Virus record (IMG/VR): IMGVR_UViG_3300042295_001683
Coordinates: 1-64,000 of that record
DNA: 64,000 bases
Reading direction: 5' to 3' (one strand)
Source: a virus
Lineage: Duplodnaviria > Caudoviricetes
This document shows positions 43,739 to 53,229 of this stretch, in pieces (position 1 is the first letter of the stretch; the number at the start of each line of letters is the position of its first letter). Position numbers and translations under genes: made by a program. Under the pieces are notes generated by a model. It made no database searches and was not told the origin of the DNA. It was given only the letters and a program-made list of their open reading frames with translations.

Positions 43739-44179
43739 ATGACTACACTACTAGGAATCACAGATGAGAATTTAGGTTGCGCTTGCTGCGGTCGTACGGA
43801 TTTAAAGCGTTATGCAGTTATTCAAGATAATGAAGGCGAAATTGCTACTTACGGTAGTGACTGCGCTACAAAAATCTTAGGTAGAAAAATTTCTACTCAA
43901 AGAAATCTACCTAAGATTCAAACTGAAGACATCAAAAACATTACTCCTTTTGTAGAAGTAACTGTTTATAAAATGCATATCAGCCGACGTTACAACTTTG
44001 TAACCCGAAGCTATGAATGGGGATTAACCCTTCCTGTCAGCCCTAAACAAGTTTTAAAAACACTCAAAGAAGACTACGAATATTACGTTGAAGAGAATAT
44101 TCAAAACCGTCCCCTTGATGCTATTAAAACTGCCATTAATCTTTTAACTGAATACACGACTCAATATGCCCAAACCTAA
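43739..44179 (+). CDS. Cys-containing accessory protein
   Basis: CACCGRTDLK...YGSDCA; promoter TTGACA(43669)-17-TATATT. Confidence 0.65.
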   Translation: MTTLLGITDENLGCACCGRTDLKRYAVIQDNEGEIATYGSDCATKILGRKISTQRNLPKIQTEDIKNITPFVEVTVYKMHISRRYNFVTRSYEWGLTLPVSPKQVLKTLKEDYEYYVEENIQNRPLDAIKTAINLLTEYTTQYAQT

Positions 44180-44387
44180 CCCCGCAAACCCATACCATTG
44201 CGATCGCCCTATGCGTCGCAATGGTAAACAAGCCAAGTCAGGGGCAGTGCAATATCGCTGCAAATGTGGCTTTACCTGTACCGATGGCGATCGCCCCGCA
44301 CACCGCCCCCTATTAGGTGATGCGCCTTTGACGCAAGTTGAGCGTAATCGTAGGTATAGAGCTAAGAAGAAAGCTAATTTAAATTAG
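44166..44387 (+). CDS. InsA-like zinc-ribbon DNA-binding protein
   Basis: HCDRPMRRNGK...QYRCKCG; GDAPLTQVERNRRYR; paralog of 59127-59396. Confidence 0.65.
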   Translation: MPKPNPANPYHCDRPMRRNGKQAKSGAVQYRCKCGFTCTDGDRPAHRPLLGDAPLTQVERNRRYRAKKKANLN

Positions 44388-44462
44388 TTGCAAATAGTAG
44401 TTGACAAATACAGGATATCGATCAATAATAGATCGTTGAGTTAAACAAGCAAGGCAAAAACA

Positions 44463-44783
44463 ATGACACATTCTTTAGATGAAAAACAACCAACTCTTGA
44501 CAAGCTTATTGCAAGCCATCCAATGTTTGAGGAGCTAAAAACTATTATTGATTCTTTGATCTCAACTCGATATAAAAAAGTTAGAAAACTAGCTGGTCAA
44601 TCGTGGAAAGGCTACAGGTCAAATGCTCAGTATTTGAGTGAAGTCACTAAAAACAACAATCTTGGCAATAAAATTGCTGCTATGCAACGTCAAATCTTGG
44701 TTGATATTGATTTACTAGATGAAACTGGTTTTGCGTTTTTTAGAAACTATTCTGTTGACTGGGATAAAGTTAGAGCTTGGTAA
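44463..44783 (+). CDS. Hypothetical accessory protein
   Basis: After promoter TTGACA(44401)-17-AATAAT. Confidence 0.6.
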   Translation: MTHSLDEKQPTLDKLIASHPMFEELKTIIDSLISTRYKKVRKLAGQSWKGYRSNAQYLSEVTKNNNLGNKIAAMQRQILVDIDLLDETGFAFFRNYSVDWDKVRAW

Positions 44784-44784
44784 T

Positions 44785-44997
44785 ATGCCTAAATCACGCA
44801 CCGAAATCTATCGCGATTGCTATCTCAAGCGTACAGCAGACAAACTCCGCTACTACTGTACGCAATGCGATCGCCAACTCAGATCAGACTCACCTCTCAC
44901 TATTTGCCGCGCCTGTTGGCTTAAAACGGATGATGGCAAGCTATACATGCGACTGAAGCAAGCGGAATCAAGAGCTAAAAAAGTAGTAAAATATTAA
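44785..44997 (+). CDS. Small basic zinc-finger protein
   Basis: CTQC...CRAC; likely start MPKS at 44785. Confidence 0.6.
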   Translation: MPKSRTEIYRDCYLKRTADKLRYYCTQCDRQLRSDSPLTICRACWLKTDDGKLYMRLKQAESRAKKVVKY

Positions 44998-45058
44998 TGC
45001 GATCGCGGATGCTAGTCCCGATCGCGTGATCAACCTTATCCATTAATCGCAGGTCAAT

Positions 45059-45919
45059 ATGACAAGTTTAACTCAATTTGCATTTAATTCTCAACAGGTT
45101 CGTATTGTTTCCATTAATAACGAGCCTTGGTTTGTCGCTCAGGACGTATGTGACATTTTAGATATAAGGAATGTCAGCAAGGCTTGTAACCCATTAAAAG
45201 ATCGCGAAAAGCAAGTTTTAAATTTGCATGAGATGGGTATAACTTCAAGTGATGATCCAGACACCACAAGGCTTTTAGCGGTTTCAGAGTCTGGTTTGTA
45301 CCGCTTAACCATGAAATCTCGCAAACCTCAAGCTGAACCTTTTCAGGATTGGGTATGTGAGCAAATCTTGCCAATCATCCGCAAAACTGGCAAGTATGAG
45401 TTAGCCCCATCTCAACCCGCACTACCTCAAAACTATATTGAGGCTCTAGAGGCACATCTACAATCTGAGAAAGATAAAAAGGTACTTGCTGAAGCTAACC
45501 AGAAATTGATCGCCGCCAATCAATCCCTAGAAATCGAAGTACAGACTTTAGAACCAAAAGTCGATCGCTATGATTTGATTTTGGCTACCGATGGATGGAT
45601 GACTGGGGAAGAGATTGTTAAGCAGTTGAATATTTCCAAGTTTTCTGTTCGCAAGCTTTACGACATTTTGCGTAAGGAGAAAGTACTATTTAATAGCGAT
45701 GGCACTAATTTACCTTATGCCAGTTGGCAAAATGAAGGGCTTGCTACGATTCGTGATGGTCAATGTTTTGATGGACGCATGAGATTTAGCCCTGTATTCT
45801 CTTGGAAGGGATTGGATCGCATTCTTGACCTATTGCGTAAACATCAAGTTATCCCAAGGGATAAGCAGTATCGATTTAACTTTGATTCTGACAAAATCGT
45901 AGCGATGAAGAGGGCTTAG
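45059..45919 (+). CDS. BRO-N / KilAC phage antirepressor
   Basis: QVRIV...EPWFVAQDVCDIL, SESGLYRL, SRKPQAEPFQDWV...LPIIRKTGKY, LPQNYIEAL. Confidence 0.92.
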   Translation: MTSLTQFAFNSQQVRIVSINNEPWFVAQDVCDILDIRNVSKACNPLKDREKQVLNLHEMGITSSDDPDTTRLLAVSESGLYRLTMKSRKPQAEPFQDWVCEQILPIIRKTGKYELAPSQPALPQNYIEALEAHLQSEKDKKVLAEANQKLIAANQSLEIEVQTLEPKVDRYDLILATDGWMTGEEIVKQLNISKFSVRKLYDILRKEKVLFNSDGTNLPYASWQNEGLATIRDGQCFDGRMRFSPVFSWKGLDRILDLLRKHQVIPRDKQYRFNFDSDKIVAMKRA

Positions 45920-45921
45920 TT

Positions 45922-46557
45922 ATGTTTGACAAAGTTTACACAACTGAAGAGCTAACTAAAATTCTAGAAATAGAGAGAATGGCTTGCGTCAAAGGTCAGG
46001 GCACATTCCCTATGCCTGATAATGCCGATGAAATTGCAAAGCAAACACCACTAGGCTCTATTTTGGGGGCGCAAAGATTATTTGAGGTTGGTTGTTATCA
46101 TGAGTTTCGCGATCAAGTTCAAAAGTATCAAATTGAAAATAATATTTCTGGGCTTGAAGTTGATGTTTGTATTATTGGTGACAAGCTCTATAGATTCCCT
46201 ATCCCTGTCTGCCAATTAGAGCTAACTAAGGATGATTACCAAGTCTTGAAGTTAGCCAAAGACGCTGTAGTTGACGCATTCCTTAGTGCTGTTGATGAGC
46301 TTACCTATTTGAGCTTTAGCCATGAAGACAAATCTCATGCTCAATTTGATATCGAAACTACAAGCCAATATATTAGACACCTTTCTGAGTTTTGCGACTG
46401 GGCAGAAATTACAGTCGCTAAAGAATTTGAAATAACTCTTGTTCTTGGCTATGGTGATTATCACGAATCTGCATATATTGCTGAGCATTCAGAAGCTGCA
46501 AAATATTCTGATTCTATGTATTTCTGTGCTGCTAAAGCTTGCAAAATTAACGGGTAA
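45922..46557 (+). CDS. Hypothetical protein
   Basis: 211-aa ORF coupled to the antirepressor. Confidence 0.65.
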   Translation: MFDKVYTTEELTKILEIERMACVKGQGTFPMPDNADEIAKQTPLGSILGAQRLFEVGCYHEFRDQVQKYQIENNISGLEVDVCIIGDKLYRFPIPVCQLELTKDDYQVLKLAKDAVVDAFLSAVDELTYLSFSHEDKSHAQFDIETTSQYIRHLSEFCDWAEITVAKEFEITLVLGYGDYHESAYIAEHSEAAKYSDSMYFCAAKACKING

Positions 46558-46613
46558 ACCAATGTCTATCAAAATCAAATTCTCTTTGTTGCCTGAGTTG
46601 AGAAGAGCATATG

Positions 46614-46914
46614 CTTCCAATCAGCCGATCACTTAACCAGAAGTTTCACCACTATCGCCTCTCTTCCAATCAGCCGATCGCTTAACCAAAAGTTTCACCA
46701 TTCTGAGTTTCCAAAAATTGCAAATAACCTTGCCTTCCAATCAATTGATCGTCTAACCACTAGTTTCACCATGAACTAGAGCGCCGCTTTACAGCCTGTA
46801 TCGGTACTTCCAATCAGCCGATCGCTTAACCAAAAGTTTCACTGGACAAAATGACAATTTTATATGTCAGCTACCTTCCTTCCAATCAGCCGATCGCTTA
46901 ACCAGAAGTTTCAC
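46614..46914 (-). CRISPR. CRISPR mini-array: five 36-bp repeats, four spacers
   Basis: Repeat GTGAAACTTCTGGTTAAGCGATCGGCTGATTGGAAG (minus strand) at 46879-46914, 46807-46842, 46734-46769 (degenerate), 46663-46698, 46614-46649; spacers 36, 37, 35 and 13 nt from the leader end. Confidence 0.95.
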
Positions 46915-48643
46915 CTAACAGATCCCAAAAACCAAGCTGAGAGCCAATATTAGGATCGATTTGCGCGGATCGCTTACGAGATTGCAATTTAGAGTCGGCT
47001 TTAGATAGTGATTTTAAATCTTGCCATAGCTCAAAGTCTTGTGGTGATTGGTTTTCAGAGTTTGCGCGAGTGGTTAGGTTGCGATCTAGCTGTAAATCAT
47101 TGTCTGGTAAGGGCTTAAGCTTATCAGCTTCCAATCTTTTATCAGTACTATTTACAGCCCCGCTTTCGCGGTTGATTGCGGGAGTTGTTTCTCCTCCCGA
47201 TCCTTTCTTACTCTTGCGAGTCTTACTCGGTTGGCGCTTCTTCCCATGCGTTGCATGATCCACGCCCTTAAATTCCCCCGATGAAGCGGGGTATGGTATC
47301 AGTACCAAGCCTTTAAAAGCAACATTACGGATAACGGTTGAGGCGTTGTTATCTGCGTTGTCACCATGACCACAATTCAAGCATTTAAAAACAGCTTGAG
47401 ATGGTCGAAACTTTTCGGAATAGTAGCCACACTGAGAGCAACCTTGAGAAGTGTGCGGTGCGGGTACTTTCACAAATATTCTTTCTGATGCTTTAGATTT
47501 AGTCTCTAGCATCGTCTTTGTTTTACCGATCGCCACATCATGAAGCGATTTATTTAAACCAGCTTTAGCAGCCGATCCGTTGGGTAGAAAAGCGCCATTT
47601 TCACCAGCTTTCGCCTTTGGTGCGCGTACCATATTTTTAACTTTGGTATCTTCAATGGCGATGCTTTGATATTCACTTACATATTTTGAAGTGAGCTTAT
47701 GGATAAAGCGATCCCTTTGCCTAGCGATTTTAAGATGCGCTTTAGCTAGTTTAGAGCGTTTAGCTTTTAGCCTGTTAGAGCCATCTTTTGAGCGAGAGAT
47801 AGAGCGCTGAATACGAGCTAATTTCTTAGCTTGCATCTTTGCGTAACGCTTAGATTTGTGTAGTCTCCCATCACTATCTGCAATAGGAGCGACTACACCA
47901 AAATCTAAACCTACTTCTTGCTTTTTTGCTGGTTTAACGGGCTTTACATCTACCGTGCTAGTGAATTGCACATAATAACCATCAGCTTTTTGGACGATGC
48001 GTACAATCGTATGATTGCCAGCATAGCGACGGTAGAATCCCTTGCATTTGATTTGTCCTAGTCTTGGATAATCAATTAATGCATTGTCATTACCCAAGGG
48101 CAAAATATTAACGTATATCCGACCGTTGCCATTAGAAAAGCTTTCTAATTTATCAGCTTTCTTTTTGTAACGTGGTCTGCCTTTTTTTCCCTTGCGGTAC
48201 TGAGTCCATGCATCAATTAGGTTATCCACAACAGATCGCCGTGATTCGCCATCAATAGAGTGTAGAAAATCAGGACACCGCATATTAGCGATAAAGCGAT
48301 AATTTTTAACGTGCTTAAATGGCTCTTCAATATCCCGATGTTTGCGGATGTCGCATTTATCAGGATAGTAAGCACAGCAAAGCCCGTATTGATTATCAGG
48401 ATTTACATACTCAATCCCGTCGATTTTGCATGATTTTCGCCATTGCCATACTTCAGGACTATACTCTGCCCATTCTTGTTTTGCCCTCCAATAACGTTGC
48501 TGATCTTCCTCAAGCAGACTTAAACCAACATTCCATACCCATTTAAGTTGAGTAAGCCACAAATCAATTTGTGTGCTTTGCTCAATCGTGGGAGACAACT
48601 TAAATTCAGTTATCTTTTTAGTAGTGGCTTCATTGCTAGTCAT
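46898..48643 (-). CDS. TnpB-family RNA-guided nuclease, type V-U2 (C2c8)-like Cas12
   Basis: EFKLSPTIEQSTQIDLWLTQLKWVWNVGL N-terminus; RuvC VGLDFG / IAIED / NADNNA; zinc finger CSQC...CLNC; adjacent array; no tnpA. Confidence 0.85.
   Translation of the reverse strand: MTSNEATTKKITEFKLSPTIEQSTQIDLWLTQLKWVWNVGLSLLEEDQQRYWRAKQEWAEYSPEVWQWRKSCKIDGIEYVNPDNQYGLCCAYYPDKCDIRKHRDIEEPFKHVKNYRFIANMRCPDFLHSIDGESRRSVVDNLIDAWTQYRKGKKGRPRYKKKADKLESFSNGNGRIYVNILPLGNDNALIDYPRLGQIKCKGFYRRYAGNHTIVRIVQKADGYYVQFTSTVDVKPVKPAKKQEVGLDFGVVAPIADSDGRLHKSKRYAKMQAKKLARIQRSISRSKDGSNRLKAKRSKLAKAHLKIARQRDRFIHKLTSKYVSEYQSIAIEDTKVKNMVRAPKAKAGENGAFLPNGSAAKAGLNKSLHDVAIGKTKTMLETKSKASERIFVKVPAPHTSQGCSQCGYYSEKFRPSQAVFKCLNCGHGDNADNNASTVIRNVAFKGLVLIPYPASSGEFKGVDHATHGKKRQPSKTRKSKKGSGGETTPAINRESGAVNSTDKRLEADKLKPLPDNDLQLDRNLTTRANSENQSPQDFELWQDLKSLSKADSKLQSRKRSAQIDPNIGSQLGFWDLLGETSG
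46915..47140 (-). promoter_or_regulatory. Cyanobacterial-type CRISPR leader embedded in the nuclease ORF
   Basis: Two CGCGCAAA motifs on the minus strand (~47061-47068 and ~46960-46967), as recalled for cyanobacterial leaders. Confidence 0.55.
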
Positions 48644-48707
48644 ATACTGATAGTATCATAGTATTGATACTATTGACAAGCTTTTAATACAAGCTTTTAA
48701 TTGTGAT
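48644..48707. promoter_or_regulatory. Divergent promoters with operator repeats
   Basis: Inverted repeat ATAGTATCA-6-TGATACTAT (48650-48673); tandem ACAAGCTTTTAAT x2 (48676-48701); TTGACA(48673)-17-TTTAAT. Confidence 0.7.
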
Positions 48708-48917
48708 ATGGCTTTAAGAAATATAGTTAAAGAATTTCTGGAAGAAAGAAAAATAACCGCTTATCAGTTCGTCAAAGAAACGGGGATAAGCGGTACAACT
48801 GGCTATGAGTTAGCGCGTAACCCTTGGCATATACCATCTACAGGCTCAATCGCTAAAATCTGCGATACCTACAAAATTCAACCATCTGAAATTGTTGTTT
48901 GGGTAGGGAATGAATAA
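48708..48917 (+). CDS. Cro/C1-type HTH regulator divergent from the nuclease
   Basis: VKEFLEERKITAYQFVKETGIS...IAKICDTYKIQPSEIV. Confidence 0.85.
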   Translation: MALRNIVKEFLEERKITAYQFVKETGISGTTGYELARNPWHIPSTGSIAKICDTYKIQPSEIVVWVGNE

Positions 48918-48982
48918 CAGCCGCATAAGCTAAAATCATGAAGCAAGGTTAAACACTATCTTTAGCGTTGAGTCAGCCCCTT

Positions 48983-49024
48983 GCAACAAAAAGCCGATCG
49001 CTTGTTGGTCGGCTTTTTTGTTGC
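48983..49024. terminator. Intrinsic terminator hairpin
   Basis: AAAAAGCCGATC-GCTTGTT-GGTCGGCTTTTTT. Confidence 0.75.
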
Positions 49025-49293
49025 GTAATCTCCTATACAAAAACCTGCGAGATACTTGCAATAATTAACCAACGTATCAAGTAAGAATATTATGCAAGTT
49101 TGCGATATTTGCGGCGCTCAAGAAACTAACGGTAATATCTCCTTATCAGCCGACCGCAATCGGCATATATCTGTATCTAATAAGGATTTGCATTATACAA
49201 GATGTTGCCAGATCGCTATCAGTCGAGGTCGCAAAGGTTGTTTGAATAGATTAGGAAAAGTTATAGATCTTTCTACTCTGTTTGGTGTTTAGA

Positions 49294-52200
49294 TTACATA
49301 CTCAACGCCGCCGATCGTGCCATCTCCCTTTGAATTTGCAAAGCGATCTCAGTAGCATTACCGCTACCAGTCGTCACATTTACGTTATAGGTTTTGTTAC
49401 CGCCCGAATTGTTCAATACGTTCTTAGTCTGATTTGCAGGTAGGACATTAGAGCCTCTAGGCAATGTCACAAGCTCAGCACCTCGTTCTCCTACCAATGC
49501 AATACCGCCGCGGAAGTTTGTAACACCACTAGCAAAAGCAGGAACTTTTCCTACCCCTACAGCGCCGCTAAGTGGTGAAGCCCCTTTGGCGACTGATAGA
49601 GCGCTGATAATTTGCTGTGCAGACTTACCTAAAATTTGCTGTATCTCAATCGCAGACGCTTTATCTAGCGCCCTTTGTTGCTCTTTAAATACTCTCTCAC
49701 GTTCGATTTTCTGATCCTCAAACGCCCGATCAAGCGCTAGCTCTTTCTCTTTTTGAGCTAACTTAATCGTCTCTAGCTCAGCATCAGCAGCTTTCCTGAG
49801 TGCTAAGTCCTCGTTAGTTTGCTGTAGTTTTAAAGCACGTTCTTCATCGGCTTGCTGCTTTTTAATTGTTGCAAGTTCACCTCTCTCGAAAGCTAATTTA
49901 CTAGCCTGTAATTCAGCTTCGATTCTTTGTTTTTCAGGTTTGAGTACAGTGTTCTCAAAGTTCAACTTAGCAGCGTTTTGCTCAGCATCAAAAGCCAACT
50001 TAGCAGCGTTTAATTCAGCTTCAAAAGCCTTGTCACTAGCTCTCTTGACCTCTGTGCGCTTTACATCTTCAGCTTTATCGATTTCAAGCTGCTTGGCTTT
50101 GTTGGCTTTCTCTAATTCGTCCAATGCAAGTTGTACTTTTTTCTGCTCTTCACCCGTAGCGATCGCGGATACTTGAGCTATTTGCTTGGCTTGAGCAACT
50201 AACTGTTCTTGGCTTTGTACTCCGCCCTGTCCTTGGGTAGCTGCTTGTGCTCTAATGCGATTCTCTTCTTCGATTTGCGCTGCAATCCTAGCCCGATCTT
50301 CGGGCTTGGCAGTAGCGATCGCGCCTTCATTACTGATTAATTGCTTAGCTTTTGACAAAGCCTCAGATGCTTGTTTATCACGCTGAGCGCGTTGCGCTGC
50401 AAAAGCTTCATCGTCTTTACGTTGCTTTTCTGCTCTCTGTTCCTTAAGTGCATTTTGCTTGTCATCAAAATCCTGCTTGAGTTTGTTTAGTTTCTCCTCG
50501 TTTGCACGTTTCTTGGCATCAAGAGCATCCTCAAGTTGTAGTTTTTTGGCATTCTGAGCGTCGTCAAATGCGCGTTGCTTATCTTGTAAAGCTAGGGTTT
50601 GCTTTTCCTTTAGTACCTCTGTTTCTAGCGCTTGCTTGCGATCTAGCTCACCTTTTGCGAGTGCATTTTTTTCTTCAATTGCTTTGATTGCATTGGCATT
50701 CTCACGATCTCGCTTGGCTTTGGTGTCTTCAAAGGATCTCTTGATATTTTTTTCAGCGTCTTGGTTTTGGGCTTCCCTGATTCTTTCAGCTTGCTTGCGT
50801 TGTTCATCGGTTACTTCAGCTTCCTTTGCTGCTGTACTATTTACCGCAGCAATTCGATCTTCTAAAAGTTTTTTGCGTTTGGAGAATATTGCAATCTCAT
50901 TGTTTAGAAGTTTTTGTAAAGCAGGGTTATCAGAAGCGCCTTGAGCTTGCGCTTTCAAGGAATTAATAGCTAAATCAATATTTTCAACCTGCTCCTTGGT
51001 TTCTTTATTAAATTTCGCTACTCCTTCGGCACCCAATCTATTTTTAGCCCCTGTAGCGTCAATGGCTACACCGTATTTATTCAATACGTTGAGTGATTCG
51101 TCAAGGTCTTTGGTATATTCCTTTTGATTTTCAGCAAATTCAATTACTTCTTTTTGTCGCCCCCTTTGCGCCCCAAAAATATCAAATGTTGCGCCTTGTC
51201 TTCCTAATCCGTCGTCAGTAGTTTGCTCAGGTGGCGCTAGCTTACCGCGTAGCGCTTGTAATTCTGCTAATTTTTGCTTGTAATCCTGCAAGCTTTTTGT
51301 CGATTCCGAAACATTAAAAGCTGATGATAATTGCTTACCTACTGCAATTAGTGGAATCGCAGCAATAGCAATTAACCCCAATGGCGTTGTCAGTGCATAC
51401 GCCGCTACACTAGCAGCCGTGAGCGCACCTGTTAGCACTCCCGTACCTACAGCAAGTGCCCCTTGAGCGATCGCCGCTAATCCCGCTTTAGTGGTTAGCA
51501 GTGTAAAGGCATTACTAGCTAGGGTAGTCGCAAAGGTGAGGGCTTTAGTACCAAAAGCTGCAATACCAGCCGCCCCACCAAATAACTTTAACCCCTCAAC
51601 AAAAGCTGGAGCCGCCGCGCCGATCGCTGTAAGAGCCGCACCTAATGTAACAATACCGCCAACTAGTCCAATAATCGCGCCTAAACCTACTTGAATTGGT
51701 GCGGGTAATTGGTTGAATACATCAACAGCCGCGCCTACAACCGCTATTAATGGCGCAAAAGCTGTTTGTGTACCACGTCCTAAATTTACTAAAGCTTCAT
51801 TGATTTTGTTGATTGCTGTTGTTATTTTCCCTTCAGCAGATTTAGCAACAACATCAAAACCAATTTGCGCTTTGCCCGAAGCATTGCCAACAGCTACTAG
51901 ATTCTCATTAAAGTTCTTAAGGTCGTCGTTAAGTAAAGGGACAACAGCAGTTAAACCATCAATATCTGTAAAGATTTTAGATAGCTGACTACTGGTGGTT
52001 AAGCCAGCCACTTTTAATCGATTGAGTACACCTGTTAATCCTTCAGTTTTAAGCGTTGTAGCAGCGTTAGTGATCCCAATAGCCTTCAATGCTTCTTTTG
52101 CGGATTGCGTGGGCTTAACCAAGTTGACGATCGCCTGTCTAATACCACTAACCGCAGTCTCGGTTTTAACGCCTTTAATCGTAACGCTTGCTATGGCAGC

Positions 52201-53229
52201 GTTTAACTCGTTTAGTGTTACGCCCGCACTTGCAGCAATTGGCGCAACTTTACCAAGCTGACCAGCAAATAATCCAATTGTAGTTTTACCTTTATCTTGG
52301 ACTACTGCTAATTGGTCTACTACCTTAGCAGCATCGCTAGCAGCTAAACCATAGGCATTCAAAATTGAGGTAGTTGCATCAGCTACCGTAGCTGTGTCAG
52401 TAAAACCAGCCTTAGCACCTAATACCGATACTCTGGCAATCTCTGAAGCATCAGCAGCATTAATAAATCCACTAGATAGAATTTCGTATTGTGCTGTTAA
52501 TATTTCGGTGCTGGTTACTTGATTGTTTAAATCCTTTGATAGCTTGATAGCTGTATTAGCAAAAGCGTTAGATTGAGTAGATAATGTCGCTACTTTAGTT
52601 TTGGCAGTATCAAAAGCCAAAAAAGCTTGATTAGCAGCACTAGAAACTTGATTGAAAGTAGTACCAATCCGTTCTAATGTCTGCGATGTATTTTGTAGTT
52701 GCTCAGCTAAATCTCGCGCTTTCTCAGTAGTAGCGCCAATGAACTGATTAAAAGTTACAGGACTCGCATCGTCAAAACCTTTCTTGATTTTGTCGAGATT
52801 AAGTTTATTGATTTCACTCGCTAGAGCTTTAGCGTTAGCAATATCAGCAGGATTAATCAGCTTTGCATCTATAGCTGCTAATTGCTGTTTGTATCGTAGT
52901 AATTCTTGTGCAACTCGCGCCGCCTCTTTGTCAGCGCCATCTGATACCCGTACAGCGCTAGCTGCTTTTTGTTTTTCTAGTTGCGAGATAAAAGCAGCCG
53001 ATCTAGTTGCGTCGTTTGCGCCGCTTTGTGCCTTTTTCTTCTCTAAAGCATCAACTTCTAGCTGTAGTTTTTTGAGCGAAGCTTCAGCAATTTTTGCTGA
53101 TTCCGCGCCGCCCAAATTTAAGACGGGTGCTTTGATATTACCGATCGCAGATTGCAAAGTTTTGATGTCACTGATCGCCTTGTCGATGCCATCAAAACTT
53201 ACTCTAATTGCGTAATTCTCATCAGCCAT
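49294..53229 (-). CDS. Phage tail tape measure protein
   Basis: TP901-type core (ADATTSILNAYGL...DKGKTT...LGKVAPIA), Ala-rich coiled coils, FASG...ALVGERGAELV C-terminus. Confidence 0.93.
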   Translation of the reverse strand: MADENYAIRVSFDGIDKAISDIKTLQSAIGNIKAPVLNLGGAESAKIAEASLKKLQLEVDALEKKKAQSGANDATRSAAFISQLEKQKAASAVRVSDGADKEAARVAQELLRYKQQLAAIDAKLINPADIANAKALASEINKLNLDKIKKGFDDASPVTFNQFIGATTEKARDLAEQLQNTSQTLERIGTTFNQVSSAANQAFLAFDTAKTKVATLSTQSNAFANTAIKLSKDLNNQVTSTEILTAQYEILSSGFINAADASEIARVSVLGAKAGFTDTATVADATTSILNAYGLAASDAAKVVDQLAVVQDKGKTTIGLFAGQLGKVAPIAASAGVTLNELNAAIASVTIKGVKTETAVSGIRQAIVNLVKPTQSAKEALKAIGITNAATTLKTEGLTGVLNRLKVAGLTTSSQLSKIFTDIDGLTAVVPLLNDDLKNFNENLVAVGNASGKAQIGFDVVAKSAEGKITTAINKINEALVNLGRGTQTAFAPLIAVVGAAVDVFNQLPAPIQVGLGAIIGLVGGIVTLGAALTAIGAAAPAFVEGLKLFGGAAGIAAFGTKALTFATTLASNAFTLLTTKAGLAAIAQGALAVGTGVLTGALTAASVAAYALTTPLGLIAIAAIPLIAVGKQLSSAFNVSESTKSLQDYKQKLAELQALRGKLAPPEQTTDDGLGRQGATFDIFGAQRGRQKEVIEFAENQKEYTKDLDESLNVLNKYGVAIDATGAKNRLGAEGVAKFNKETKEQVENIDLAINSLKAQAQGASDNPALQKLLNNEIAIFSKRKKLLEDRIAAVNSTAAKEAEVTDEQRKQAERIREAQNQDAEKNIKRSFEDTKAKRDRENANAIKAIEEKNALAKGELDRKQALETEVLKEKQTLALQDKQRAFDDAQNAKKLQLEDALDAKKRANEEKLNKLKQDFDDKQNALKEQRAEKQRKDDEAFAAQRAQRDKQASEALSKAKQLISNEGAIATAKPEDRARIAAQIEEENRIRAQAATQGQGGVQSQEQLVAQAKQIAQVSAIATGEEQKKVQLALDELEKANKAKQLEIDKAEDVKRTEVKRASDKAFEAELNAAKLAFDAEQNAAKLNFENTVLKPEKQRIEAELQASKLAFERGELATIKKQQADEERALKLQQTNEDLALRKAADAELETIKLAQKEKELALDRAFEDQKIERERVFKEQQRALDKASAIEIQQILGKSAQQIISALSVAKGASPLSGAVGVGKVPAFASGVTNFRGGIALVGERGAELVTLPRGSNVLPANQTKNVLNNSGGNKTYNVNVTTGSGNATEIALQIQREMARSAALSM

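What the first reader, a model, noticed from the sequence alone, without database searches (positions are those of the whole stretch)
46879..47290. Nuclease ORF reads through the CRISPR leader and stops inside repeat 1
Seen: after the last RuvC motif the frame continues ~135 low-complexity codons across the leader. The final codons GGT GAA ACT TCT GGT TAA overlap repeat 1, which supplies the stop at 46898-46900. Established: TnpB omegaRNAs overlap the 3' end of their own ORF. Inference: the region is dual-coding (protein tail plus leader or scaffold RNA). Because a new spacer duplicates repeat 1, the stop codon would survive adaptation.
Basis: partly seen in the sequence, partly recalled or inferred. 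Interest (0 to 1): 0.7.

Follow-up and report, generated by a model that had tools for sequence, protein, structure and literature searches.

The report
Nuclease tail doubles as guide-RNA scaffold
In this cyanophage's miniature CRISPR system, the last stretch of the nuclease gene codes for a floppy protein tail and also for a folded RNA next to the CRISPR array, and the gene's stop codon lies inside the first repeat.

Summary
ORF 46898-48643(-) encodes a 581-aa TnpB-like, C2c8/type V-U2-like nuclease. It stays open about 150 codons past RuvC-III D431, and its TAA (46898-46900) lies inside repeat 1 (46879-46915) of a 5-repeat array.

This is not a private accident. Of 10 distinct related loci read as DNA, 7 place the stop inside repeat 1, in four clades with different repeats.

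The dual-use inference is supported.
- RNA level: synonymous divergence is 2-7 times lower in the tail than in the core. Stems at 47157-47291 show compensatory changes, and a covariance model finds the element in the tails of distant relatives. In two metatranscriptomes the only full-length contigs from the locus lie on the tail (46964-47290, 47050-47278).
- Protein level: residues 459-581 are predicted disordered, and all 4 internal indels are in frame. A C-terminal QLxLW(D) motif occurs in 28 of 38 family members and 0 of 83 other TnpBs. It fits the beta-clamp-binding consensus, and a complex model with controls docks it on host DnaN.

An ORF-embedded tracrRNA is already published for Cas12n and TnpB, so this is a new variant of a known kind. 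The clamp-like motif and the stop codon inside the repeat unit are the new points.

The parts
46898..48643 (-). Nuclease ORF, 581 aa plus TAA. TnpB-like, C2c8 (type V-U2)-like, with RuvC D247 (47903-47905), E331 (47651-47653), D431 (47351-47353) and a CxxC...CxxC zinc finger.
   Evidence: D247 and E331 are invariant and D431 nearly invariant in 121 homologs.
47270..48643 (-). Folded core of the nuclease, residues 1-458.
   Evidence: AlphaFold2 with a 121-sequence alignment: pLDDT mostly 90-98, with lower values at residues 61-100.
46901..47269 (-). Disordered C-terminal tail, residues 459-581.
   Evidence: pLDDT 27-44. Open in 13 of 13 close homologs. Tail omega 0.34-1.07 against 0.09-0.13 in the core.
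47157..47291 (-). 5' domain of a structured sense-strand RNA inside the tail-coding region: six hairpins, including CCGC-GAAA-GCGG.
   Evidence: RNAalifold compensatory pairs. Model R1 finds it in 7 further loci. 22 of 34 pairs show a change on both sides.
46964..47290 (.). Stretch held as a whole 327-nt contig in metatranscriptome run X19. Run X18 holds a whole 229-nt contig at 47050-47278.
   Evidence: Neither RNA run has any contig on 47291-48643, while DNA run X17 covers everything. Contigs show neither strand nor exact ends.
47045..47051 (-). CCAAUCA, a candidate anti-repeat complementary to UGAUUGG in the repeat (46882-46888). A second candidate, CAAUCA, lies at 47173-47178.
   Evidence: RNAalifold helix 10, invariant in 4 of 4 sequences. 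Not better than shuffles by RNAduplex, so this is inference only.
46919..46939 (-). Codons for Q569-L575 (QLGFWDL), the conserved C-terminal motif that resembles the beta-clamp-binding consensus.
   Evidence: Complex model with DnaN.
46879..46915 (-). CRISPR repeat 1. It encodes G577-G581 and supplies the stop TAA (46898-46900).
46614..46878 (-). Rest of the array: spacers of 35, 36, 34 and 12 nt and repeats 2-5. Repeat 3 is degenerate.

Best explanation
The window carries a phage-borne type V-U2-like (C2c8-like) CRISPR locus in which the last ~370 nt of the nuclease gene serve two purposes.

(1) On the sense strand they specify a structured RNA that starts near 47290 and runs toward repeat 1. 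This is the counterpart of the TnpB omegaRNA scaffold and the Cas12n tracrRNA. With the repeat-derived part of each crRNA it would form the guide for a RuvC-active nuclease.

(2) As codons they give an intrinsically disordered linker. The linker holds a conserved motif, QLGFWDL (family form QLxLW/F-D), just before five residues and a stop codon supplied by repeat 1.

The stop codon belongs to the repeat unit. The likely reason is that the array arose by duplicating the terminal scaffold segment of an omegaRNA that already overlapped the ORF end. Any leader-side duplication of repeat 1 therefore keeps the ORF closed.

Shown here: the overlap and its conservation, the RNA-structure covariation, RNA-library contigs limited to the tail, predicted disorder, and motif conservation.

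Inferred: that the RNA is the guide scaffold, how it pairs with the repeats, that it is processed from the nuclease transcript, and that the motif tethers the effector to the host sliding clamp DnaN. I put the clamp part alone at about 0.45.
For: Overlap. The stop is inside repeat 1 in the window and in 7 of 10 distinct DNA-level loci: window=L005, L003=L004, L002, L084, L089, L082, L099. These fall in four clades with different repeat sequences.

RNA.
- dS in core vs tail is 0.89 vs 0.39, 0.185 vs 0.027 and 0.41 vs 0.12 in three independent contrasts. Fisher p = 3.5e-4, 1.0e-3, 1.6e-4.
- RNAalifold on 4 sequences gives 84 pairs, 7 of them with compensatory change and 99.4% of cells paired. 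Slid controls give 0-1 such pairs.
- Covariance model R1 hits 7 further loci, all on the gene's sense strand and all inside the last ~460 nt of the ORF (E from 2.3e-6 to 0.2).
- On that 10-sequence alignment, 22 of 34 pairs change on both sides and 96.5% of cells are paired. Slid controls give 2-4 pairs and 36-48%.
- G-U pairs favour the sense strand.
- Two metatranscriptome runs from two studies hold whole contigs on 47050-47278 and 46964-47290 and none on the rest of the gene. DNA run X17 covers all of it.

Protein.
- The tail is open in 13 of 13 close homologs.
- All 4 internal tail indels are multiples of 3: 69, 18, 12 and 24 nt.
- pLDDT is below 50 for residues 459-581.
- The motif Q[LF]x[LIFV][WF] lies in the last 25 aa in 14 of 16 close and 14 of 22 C2c8-like proteins, and in 0 of 83 other TnpBs.
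- The motif is kept with different codons: CAG/CAA, CTT/CTG/TTG.
- It fits the C-terminal beta-binding consensus Q-L-x-L-F (PMC4549789, passages).
- Complex model of Pseudanabaena DnaN with tail residues 536-581: score 0.64 against a best control of 0.00. That mark was reached by 58 of 80 solved complexes and 2 of 110 mismatched pairs. The runs agree in at least 73% of contacts, and partner pLDDT is at least 55. Contacts run from tail residues 565-575 to DnaN 175-180, 254-261, 334-339, 360-362 and 378-383.
Against: No statistically convincing anti-repeat was found. Repeat-vs-tail duplex energies lie within the shuffle range in 5 of 6 clades (z from +0.8 to -1.1); only L099 reaches z = -2.9.

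No consensus promoter was found near 47290, and nothing matched Rfam.

RNA contigs cannot give strand, ends or abundance, and the tool itself rates this pattern as a weak hint.

The 4-sequence structure was predicted from the same alignment it was tested on. The 10-sequence alignment was fitted to the model, which biases the pair counts. Two of the 7 model hits are weak (E = 0.2), and L082, L083 and CL131 gave no hit.

Lower dS could partly reflect recombination.

The tail is broken in some relatives: CL131, L087, and 8 of 22 C2c8-like proteins lack the motif. It is therefore dispensable in at least some lineages, as is reported for Cas12n.

Four clades share the codons CAG CTT, so part of the motif's conservation may be at the nucleotide level.

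The complex pass may reflect the model's memory of solved clamp-peptide structures.
Confidence: 0.72

Rival explanations
1. The RNA is the only functional product. The tail is translated merely because the purine-rich scaffold region happens to lack stops, as with the 'dispensable' tail reported for Cas12n. On this view the QLxLW motif is a by-product of nucleotide-level constraint next to repeat 1.
For: Tail omega is 0.34-1.07. The most conserved nucleotide blocks translate into K/R/G/S runs. The codons for FWD lie in a predicted hairpin, 46950-46957 with 46921-46928. CAG CTT is shared by four clades. The tail is broken in CL131 and L087, and the motif is absent in 8 of 22 C2c8-like proteins. 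Published statement for Cas12n: bioRxiv 10.64898/2026.03.27.714800, section 6.
Against: All 4 internal indels are in frame. The tail is open in 13 of 13 close homologs. The motif is kept with synonymous and conservative differences (W/F, L/I/F, CAA/CAG, CTT/CTG/TTG) in clades whose tails cannot otherwise be aligned. It is found in 0 of 83 other TnpBs.
Confidence: 0.2
2. The tail-coding DNA is an ordinary CRISPR leader (promoter plus integration signals) that happens to be open. The nucleotide conservation then reflects DNA-level signals and not an RNA scaffold.
For: It sits directly upstream of repeat 1. In L003 the degenerate repeat is at the ORF-distal end, as expected if the ORF side is the leader. 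Arrays differ in spacer content between relatives.
Against: Compensatory base-pair changes and G-U pairs point to an RNA structure. RNA-library contigs cover the region. No promoter-like site was found there. No cas1 or cas2 gene lies in the locus: of the 6 neighbouring ORFs scanned, 2 were named, as phage tape measure protein and anti-repressor, and 4 had no match.
Confidence: 0.06
3. A private stop-codon loss, frameshift or assembly error fuses a short nuclease to non-coding DNA.
For: The annotated CL131 homolog stops 255 nt before its array.
Against: The same open tail occurs in 13 of 13 close homologs from independent sources. DNA runs from several studies cover the locus. CL131 keeps an out-of-frame remnant '...HTQLTLW*' that ends 8 nt before repeat 1, so CL131 is the broken copy.
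Confidence: 0.02

Closest known systems
Cas12n (type V-N, formerly V-U4) with its tracrRNA
   Same: A miniature TnpB-like effector with a disordered C-terminal tail, a tracrRNA region that overlaps its own ORF, and an array directly downstream (PMC12216341, passages; bioRxiv 10.64898/2026.03.27.714800, section 6).
   Different: This protein scores best against the C2c8/V-U2 model and not against Cas12n. Its PDB 9j09 match covers only the RuvC/TNB part (E = 7e-19). Here the ORF runs into repeat 1 and takes its stop from it. The tail also carries a conserved terminal motif, whereas the Cas12n tail is described as dispensable. I did not test whether Cas12n tails hold the same motif.
TnpB-omegaRNA of IS200/IS605 (e.g. 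ISDra2)
   Same: The scaffold RNA overlaps the 3' end of the nuclease ORF on the sense strand, with the guide just downstream. The protein passes NCBIfam guided_TnpB (189.5 bits against a cut-off of 100).
   Different: There is a 5-repeat array in place of a single guide. No transposase was named among the 6 neighbouring ORFs scanned. The tail is about 120 aa longer.
Type V-U2 locus of cyanophage vB_AphaS-CL131 (MG209611)
   Same: A cyanophage-borne C2c8-like gene next to a 36-nt-repeat array with no other cas genes (PMC6293099, passages). It is 35% identical over 75% of the query.
   Different: That paper reports no tracrRNA and leaves array direction open. Its CDS stops early, and I find only a broken remnant of the tail and motif. 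The window's copy is intact.
Transposases and replication/repair enzymes with a C-terminal beta-clamp-binding motif (Q-L-x-L-F)
   Same: [quoted passage not shown] It is predicted to dock in the DnaN cleft.
   Different: Position 5 is usually W rather than F, and the motif is followed by D. The carrier is an RNA-guided nuclease. Binding has not been measured.

Membership tests
Type V-U2 / C2c8 effector | Score at or above the curated cut-off of NCBIfam NF038192 (350 bits). | tested here: not met
   294.1 bits, E = 2.2e-87. It is the best-scoring family, matching residues 10-408, so I call the protein C2c8-like.
Type V-U2 / C2c8 effector | TnpB-like RuvC nuclease with zinc finger, next to a CRISPR array and with no other cas genes. 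| tested here: met
   Pfam OrfB_IS605 plus Cas12f1-like_TNB. Five repeats lie directly downstream. Of the 6 neighbouring ORFs scanned, 2 were named (tape measure protein, Ant) and 4 had no match.
Type V-U2 / C2c8 effector | Nearest named relatives are C2c8 proteins. | tested here: met
   P0024 and P0030, which NCBI names C2c8, are 35-38% identical over about 75-83% of the query.
Cas12n-type 'tracrRNA inside a disordered C-terminal tail' | Drop to low structure confidence after the last RuvC residue. | tested here: met
   pLDDT is below 50 for residues 459-581 and 90-98 before that. The shallow-alignment model was unusable.
Cas12n-type 'tracrRNA inside a disordered C-terminal tail' | A structured RNA encoded in the tail-coding region. 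| tested here: met
   Covariation and RNA-library contigs.
Cas12n-type 'tracrRNA inside a disordered C-terminal tail' | An anti-repeat that pairs with the CRISPR repeat. | tested here: inconclusive
   Only 6-7-nt candidates were found (47045-47051, 47173-47178). Duplex energies lie within the shuffle range.
Cas12n-type 'tracrRNA inside a disordered C-terminal tail' | Sequence membership in Cas12n. | tested here: not met
   No Cas12n/C2c9 family appears among the NCBIfam hits. The PDB 9j09 match is limited to residues 264-438.
TnpB-omegaRNA (IS200/IS605) | NCBIfam guided_TnpB subfamily cut-off (100 bits). | tested here: met
   189.5 bits.
TnpB-omegaRNA (IS200/IS605) | Part of a transposon: tnpA or IS ends, and a single guide. 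| tested here: not met
   The locus has an array of 5 repeats. None of the 6 neighbouring ORFs is a transposase by PHROGs. IS ends were not searched.
Beta-clamp-binding motif proteins | Q-L-x-L-F-like peptide at a flexible terminus. | tested here: met
   QLGFW lies at residues 569-573 of 581, within the disordered tail. The family form is QL[STGD][LIF][WF]. Consensus taken from PMC4549789.
Beta-clamp-binding motif proteins | Physical binding to the DnaN cleft. | not testable with these tools
   Only a model is available: score 0.64 against a best control of 0.00. It may reflect likeness to solved clamp-peptide complexes.

The most novel reading that the evidence does not exclude
V-U2 effectors are RNA-guided nucleases tethered to the bacterial sliding clamp by a C-terminal QLxLW motif. 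The nuclease would then ride or dock on DnaN at replicating DNA of rival phages, plasmids or the host. The gene is built so that one DNA segment yields the guide scaffold, the flexible tether and the clamp hook, with the stop codon stored in every CRISPR repeat.
Probability: 0.4. Interest if true: 0.8.

Novelty: new variant of a known kind. Interest (0 to 1): 0.62.

Why it matters
Type V-U2 is, as far as my searches show, still without a defined guide RNA. The CL131 paper found no tracrRNA. Placing a conserved, covarying scaffold RNA inside the ORF tail tells an experimenter where to look. It could make a roughly 450-aa nuclease core usable.

The stop codon sits within the repeat unit in four clades. 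This is a concrete trace of arrays arising by duplication of the omegaRNA end, a route proposed in PMC10691335.

If the C-terminal motif really binds DnaN, it would link a CRISPR effector to the replisome. That link is known for transposases but not for Cas12 or TnpB in the papers I could search.

Tried and rejected
- Rfam scan of 44000-50000 at E <= 1: only a chance Leu_leader hit.
- Promoter/terminator scan of 46400-48900: 6 promoter-like sites against 5.9 expected, none near 47290.
- AlphaFold2 with the 13-sequence alignment: mean pLDDT 35.6, unusable. Replaced by the 121-sequence run.
- RNAduplex search for an anti-repeat: no clade beats shuffles except L099. One search timed out.
- Further DNA copies of the close clade: none beyond window/L005, L003/L004, L002 and L006. 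This covered two viral protein scans and one pattern scan, one metagenome scan, 401 genomes of the phylum and 71 genomes of the order.
- Spacer matches: 58 spacers from five arrays gave only self-hits against G000 and all held loci. Public collections were not searched for protospacers.
- phmmer of the last 45 residues against PDB: chance hits only.
- dnaN in the phage record: none found.
- Run X20 (labelled RNA, probably DNA) holds only a diverged relative and was not used. The parts of the gene without cover in X18 and X19 are reported only as context for the two tail contigs.
Figures S6/S7 of PMC6293099 and the SI of PMC10691335 may describe V-U2 tails or RNAs that I could not see.
Full report
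OBSERVATION. On the minus strand an ORF runs from 48643 to 46898 and encodes 581 aa. Its last six codons, GGT GAA ACT TCT GGT TAA, coincide with the first 18 nt of a 37-nt direct repeat at 46879-46915. Four more copies lie at 46807-46843, 46734-46770, 46663-46699 and 46614-46650, separated by spacers of 35, 36, 34 and 12 nt. RuvC-III D431 is at 47351-47353, so about 150 codons follow it.

WHAT THE GENE IS. Pfam finds OrfB_IS605 and the Cas12f1-like TNB domain. In NCBIfam the best family is type V C2c8 (V-U2) at 294 bits, under its 350-bit cut-off. The guided_TnpB subfamily is passed, at 189.5 bits against a cut-off of 100. The nearest solved structures are TnpB (E about 1e-20 to 1e-24), and RdCas12n (9j09) matches over the RuvC part only. 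D247 and E331 are invariant and D431 nearly invariant among 121 homologs, so an active nuclease is likely.

The window belongs to an IMG/VR virus record of 73.4 kb that CheckV estimates at 95% complete. The neighbouring genes are a tape measure protein (49294-53229) and an Ant-like anti-repressor (45059-45919). No cas1, cas2 or transposase was named among the 6 neighbours scanned; 4 of them had no match. DNA runs holding the stretch come from lake and freshwater metagenomes. The closest cellular homolog, 78-80% identical, is in Pseudanabaena sp. FACHB-1998.

IS THE ORF-REPEAT OVERLAP CONSERVED? Yes. All 13 close homologs (67-92% identity) keep the tail open to a shared end. At the DNA level I could read 10 distinct loci that have an array of their own type.

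The stop lies inside repeat 1 in 7 of them:
- the window (= L005);
- L003 (= L004), a related virus with 7 repeats;
- L002, Pseudanabaena, with 33 repeats and a TAG stop;
- L084 and L089 (genomes G572 and G646), 779-781 aa, with a quite different repeat, GACGAAATCAACTTTTGAGGG..., and a TGA stop;
- L082 (G494);
- L099 (G739).

In L082 and L099 I read only two imperfect repeat copies by eye from the printed sequence.

The other three loci differ as follows:
- L006: a 1-nt difference at the junction lets the frame run through repeat 1 into spacer 1.
- L087: a TAG falls 14 codons early.
- Cyanophage CL131 (L042): the annotated CDS stops soon after RuvC-III, but a shifted frame still reads '...KTKRKNAKKQRPSETSNESHTQLTLW*' and ends 8 nt before repeat 1.

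Four further relatives (L079/L080, L083, L086) have no array of this type directly after the gene. In both well-sampled clades the stop ends at position 17-18 of the repeat, and all repeats end in ...TTGG(A/C)AAG or ...TTGCAAG. This suggests an inherited architecture and not convergence.

THE TAIL AS PROTEIN. With a 121-sequence alignment, AlphaFold2 folds residues 11-450 with pLDDT mostly 90-98 and gives 27-44 for residues 459-581. The tail evolves fast (omega 0.34-1.07 against 0.09-0.13 in the core). Even so, all 4 internal indels seen in DNA are multiples of three: 69, 18, 12 and 24 nt. The 69-nt form also exists as a DNA variant in run X17.

The tail ends in an invariant IGSQLGFWDL. More distant C2c8-like proteins have tails that cannot otherwise be aligned, yet they end in QLSLWD, QLTLWD, QLSLFD, QLTLFDL, QLTIWD or QPILWD, followed by 1-14 residues. 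The pattern Q[LF]x[LIFV][WF] occurs in the last 25 residues of 14 of 16 close proteins and 14 of 22 C2c8-like proteins, and in 0 of 83 other TnpBs. It occurs elsewhere in those proteins 0, 0 and 2 times. Different codons encode it in different clades.

The pattern fits the beta sliding-clamp-binding consensus Q-L-x-L-F, which is typically found at a C-terminus, including those of transposases (PMC4549789, passages). I modelled the DnaN of the Pseudanabaena genome with tail residues 536-581. The score was 0.64 (three runs: 0.61, 0.64, 0.67) against a best control of 0.00. That mark was reached by 58 of 80 solved complexes and 2 of 110 mismatched pairs. The runs agree in at least 73% of contacts, and partner pLDDT is at least 55. 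Residues 565-575 touch DnaN 175-180, 254-261, 334-339, 360-362 and 378-383. From memory, these correspond to the canonical cleft between domains II and III. Many clamp-peptide complexes are solved, so the pass shows likeness to them and does not prove binding. The phage record has no dnaN of its own.

THE TAIL AS RNA. Synonymous divergence is 2-7 times lower in the tail than in the core in three independent contrasts. A block at about 47155-47245 is nearly invariant between lineages whose core dS is 0.9.

RNAalifold on the four distinct sequences predicts 84 pairs, 7 of them with compensatory changes. Examples are CCCCG/CGGGG against CUCUG/CAGAG at 47276-47291, and GGGAG/CUCCC against GGUAG/CUACC in L003. 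These swaps change the protein (P..G to S..E, G..P to V..T) while keeping the helix. The extra protein-only homologs show the same amino-acid pairings: G/P in 10, V/T in 2, R/L in 1, and no mixed pairs (my reading).

A covariance model of 47157-47291 finds the element in 7 further loci from five other lineages (34.5 to 13.5 bits, E from 2.3e-6 to 0.2). Every hit is on the gene's sense strand and within the last ~460 nt of the ORF (with ORF ends). On that alignment, 22 of 34 pairs change on both sides and 96.5% of cells are paired. Slid controls give 2-4 pairs and 36-48%, and 0 of 500 shuffles reach the observed values. The alignment is fitted to the model, which favours the structure.

Two metatranscriptome runs from different studies each hold one whole contig on 47050-47278 (229 nt, identical) and 46964-47290 (327 nt, 6 differences, all in unpaired columns). 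Neither has anything on 47291-48643, while a DNA run covers the whole stretch. The tool rates this pattern as a weak hint, and contigs give neither strand nor true ends. The shared 5' boundary (47278/47290) coincides with the first hairpin and with the start of protein disorder.

WHAT REMAINS OPEN. I could not identify a convincing anti-repeat. The candidates are CCAAUCA at 47045-47051 and CAAUCA at 47173-47178, both against UGAUUGG in the repeat. They are invariant and no better than shuffles. CL131 has a longer candidate of 15 of 18 nt, 168 nt upstream of repeat 1. It is undecided whether the RNA is contiguous with repeat 1 and spacer 1 (omegaRNA-like) or is a separate tracrRNA. It is also undecided whether it is made by processing of the nuclease transcript; I recall, without having checked, that TnpB processes its own mRNA. 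No promoter-like site lies near 47290. The adaptation argument fits arrays of 5, 7 and 33 repeats that all keep the stop in repeat 1, and L003's degenerate ORF-distal repeat. Acquisition itself was not observed.

COMPARISON WITH THE LITERATURE. [quoted passage not shown] It is also in print that this tail is 'unstructured and dispensable' (bioRxiv 10.64898/2026.03.27.714800, section 6 read whole). The original Cas12n paper was not seen. The overlap of the TnpB omegaRNA with the ORF 3' end, and the origin of arrays by duplication of omegaRNA segments, are described in PMC10691335 (passages). A V-U2 locus in a cyanophage is described in PMC6293099 (passages), which found no tracrRNA.

A search for C2c8/V-U2 returned 85 papers, 25 of them listed; I opened two. 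None of the listed titles or abstracts describes a V-U2 guide RNA. Searches combining clamp terms with TnpB or Cas12 (477 papers, 15 listed) listed no paper with both in its title or abstract. Four listed papers mention 'sliding clamp' or the motif once. I did not read them.

VERDICT. The principle is already known from TnpB and Cas12n. The new points are:
- its presence in V-U2-like systems, with a family-wide covarying RNA;
- a stop codon that is part of the repeat unit in four clades;
- a conserved clamp-binding-like motif, which argues that the tail is more than a translated by-product.

Noticed in passing
window 46651-46662 and 46734-46770: The spacer between repeats 4 and 5 is only 12 nt. 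Repeat 3 is degenerate and shares ACTAGTGG with the terminal repeat of L003. The array looks rearranged, with an old terminal repeat now internal.
   Followed up: partly
window 47078-47146 (9-mer at 47128-47136): A 69-nt in-frame segment of the tail is absent in L003 and in a DNA variant of run X17. It contains GATTGGAAG, which is identical to the 3' end of the CRISPR repeat. It may be a remnant of a repeat-derived insertion.
   Followed up: no
L079/L080 (genomes G205, G749): A 590-593-aa relative ending in QLTIWDLLD sits next to cas2 and/or a long array (about 80 repeats in G205) of a different, class-1-like 37-nt repeat. It has no array of its own type.
   Followed up: partly
L083 (G701) and L086 (G653): These relatives end in QLSLNLWG.. 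and QLGLNLWD.., resembling the hexapeptide form of the clamp motif. No array lies within 1.4 kb. The stop is followed by about 20 nt resembling a repeat end, so they may be single-guide, omegaRNA-like versions.
   Followed up: no
L042 = MG209611 60626-66960 (cyanophage CL131): The deposited 'transposase' CDS ends at a TGA soon after RuvC-III. The downstream 255 nt hold a frame-shifted remnant of the tail and motif, and an 18-nt stretch with 15 nt complementary to the repeat.
   Followed up: partly
L006 2464-2515: One 'spacer' of 52 nt starts with a truncated half repeat (CGATCGCTTGATTGGAAG), so it is a partial repeat duplication.
   Followed up: no
window 46879 (run X17): Contigs of DNA run X17 carry different sequence immediately on the spacer side of repeat 1. 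The ORF-proximal spacer therefore varies in the population (table 7).
   Followed up: no
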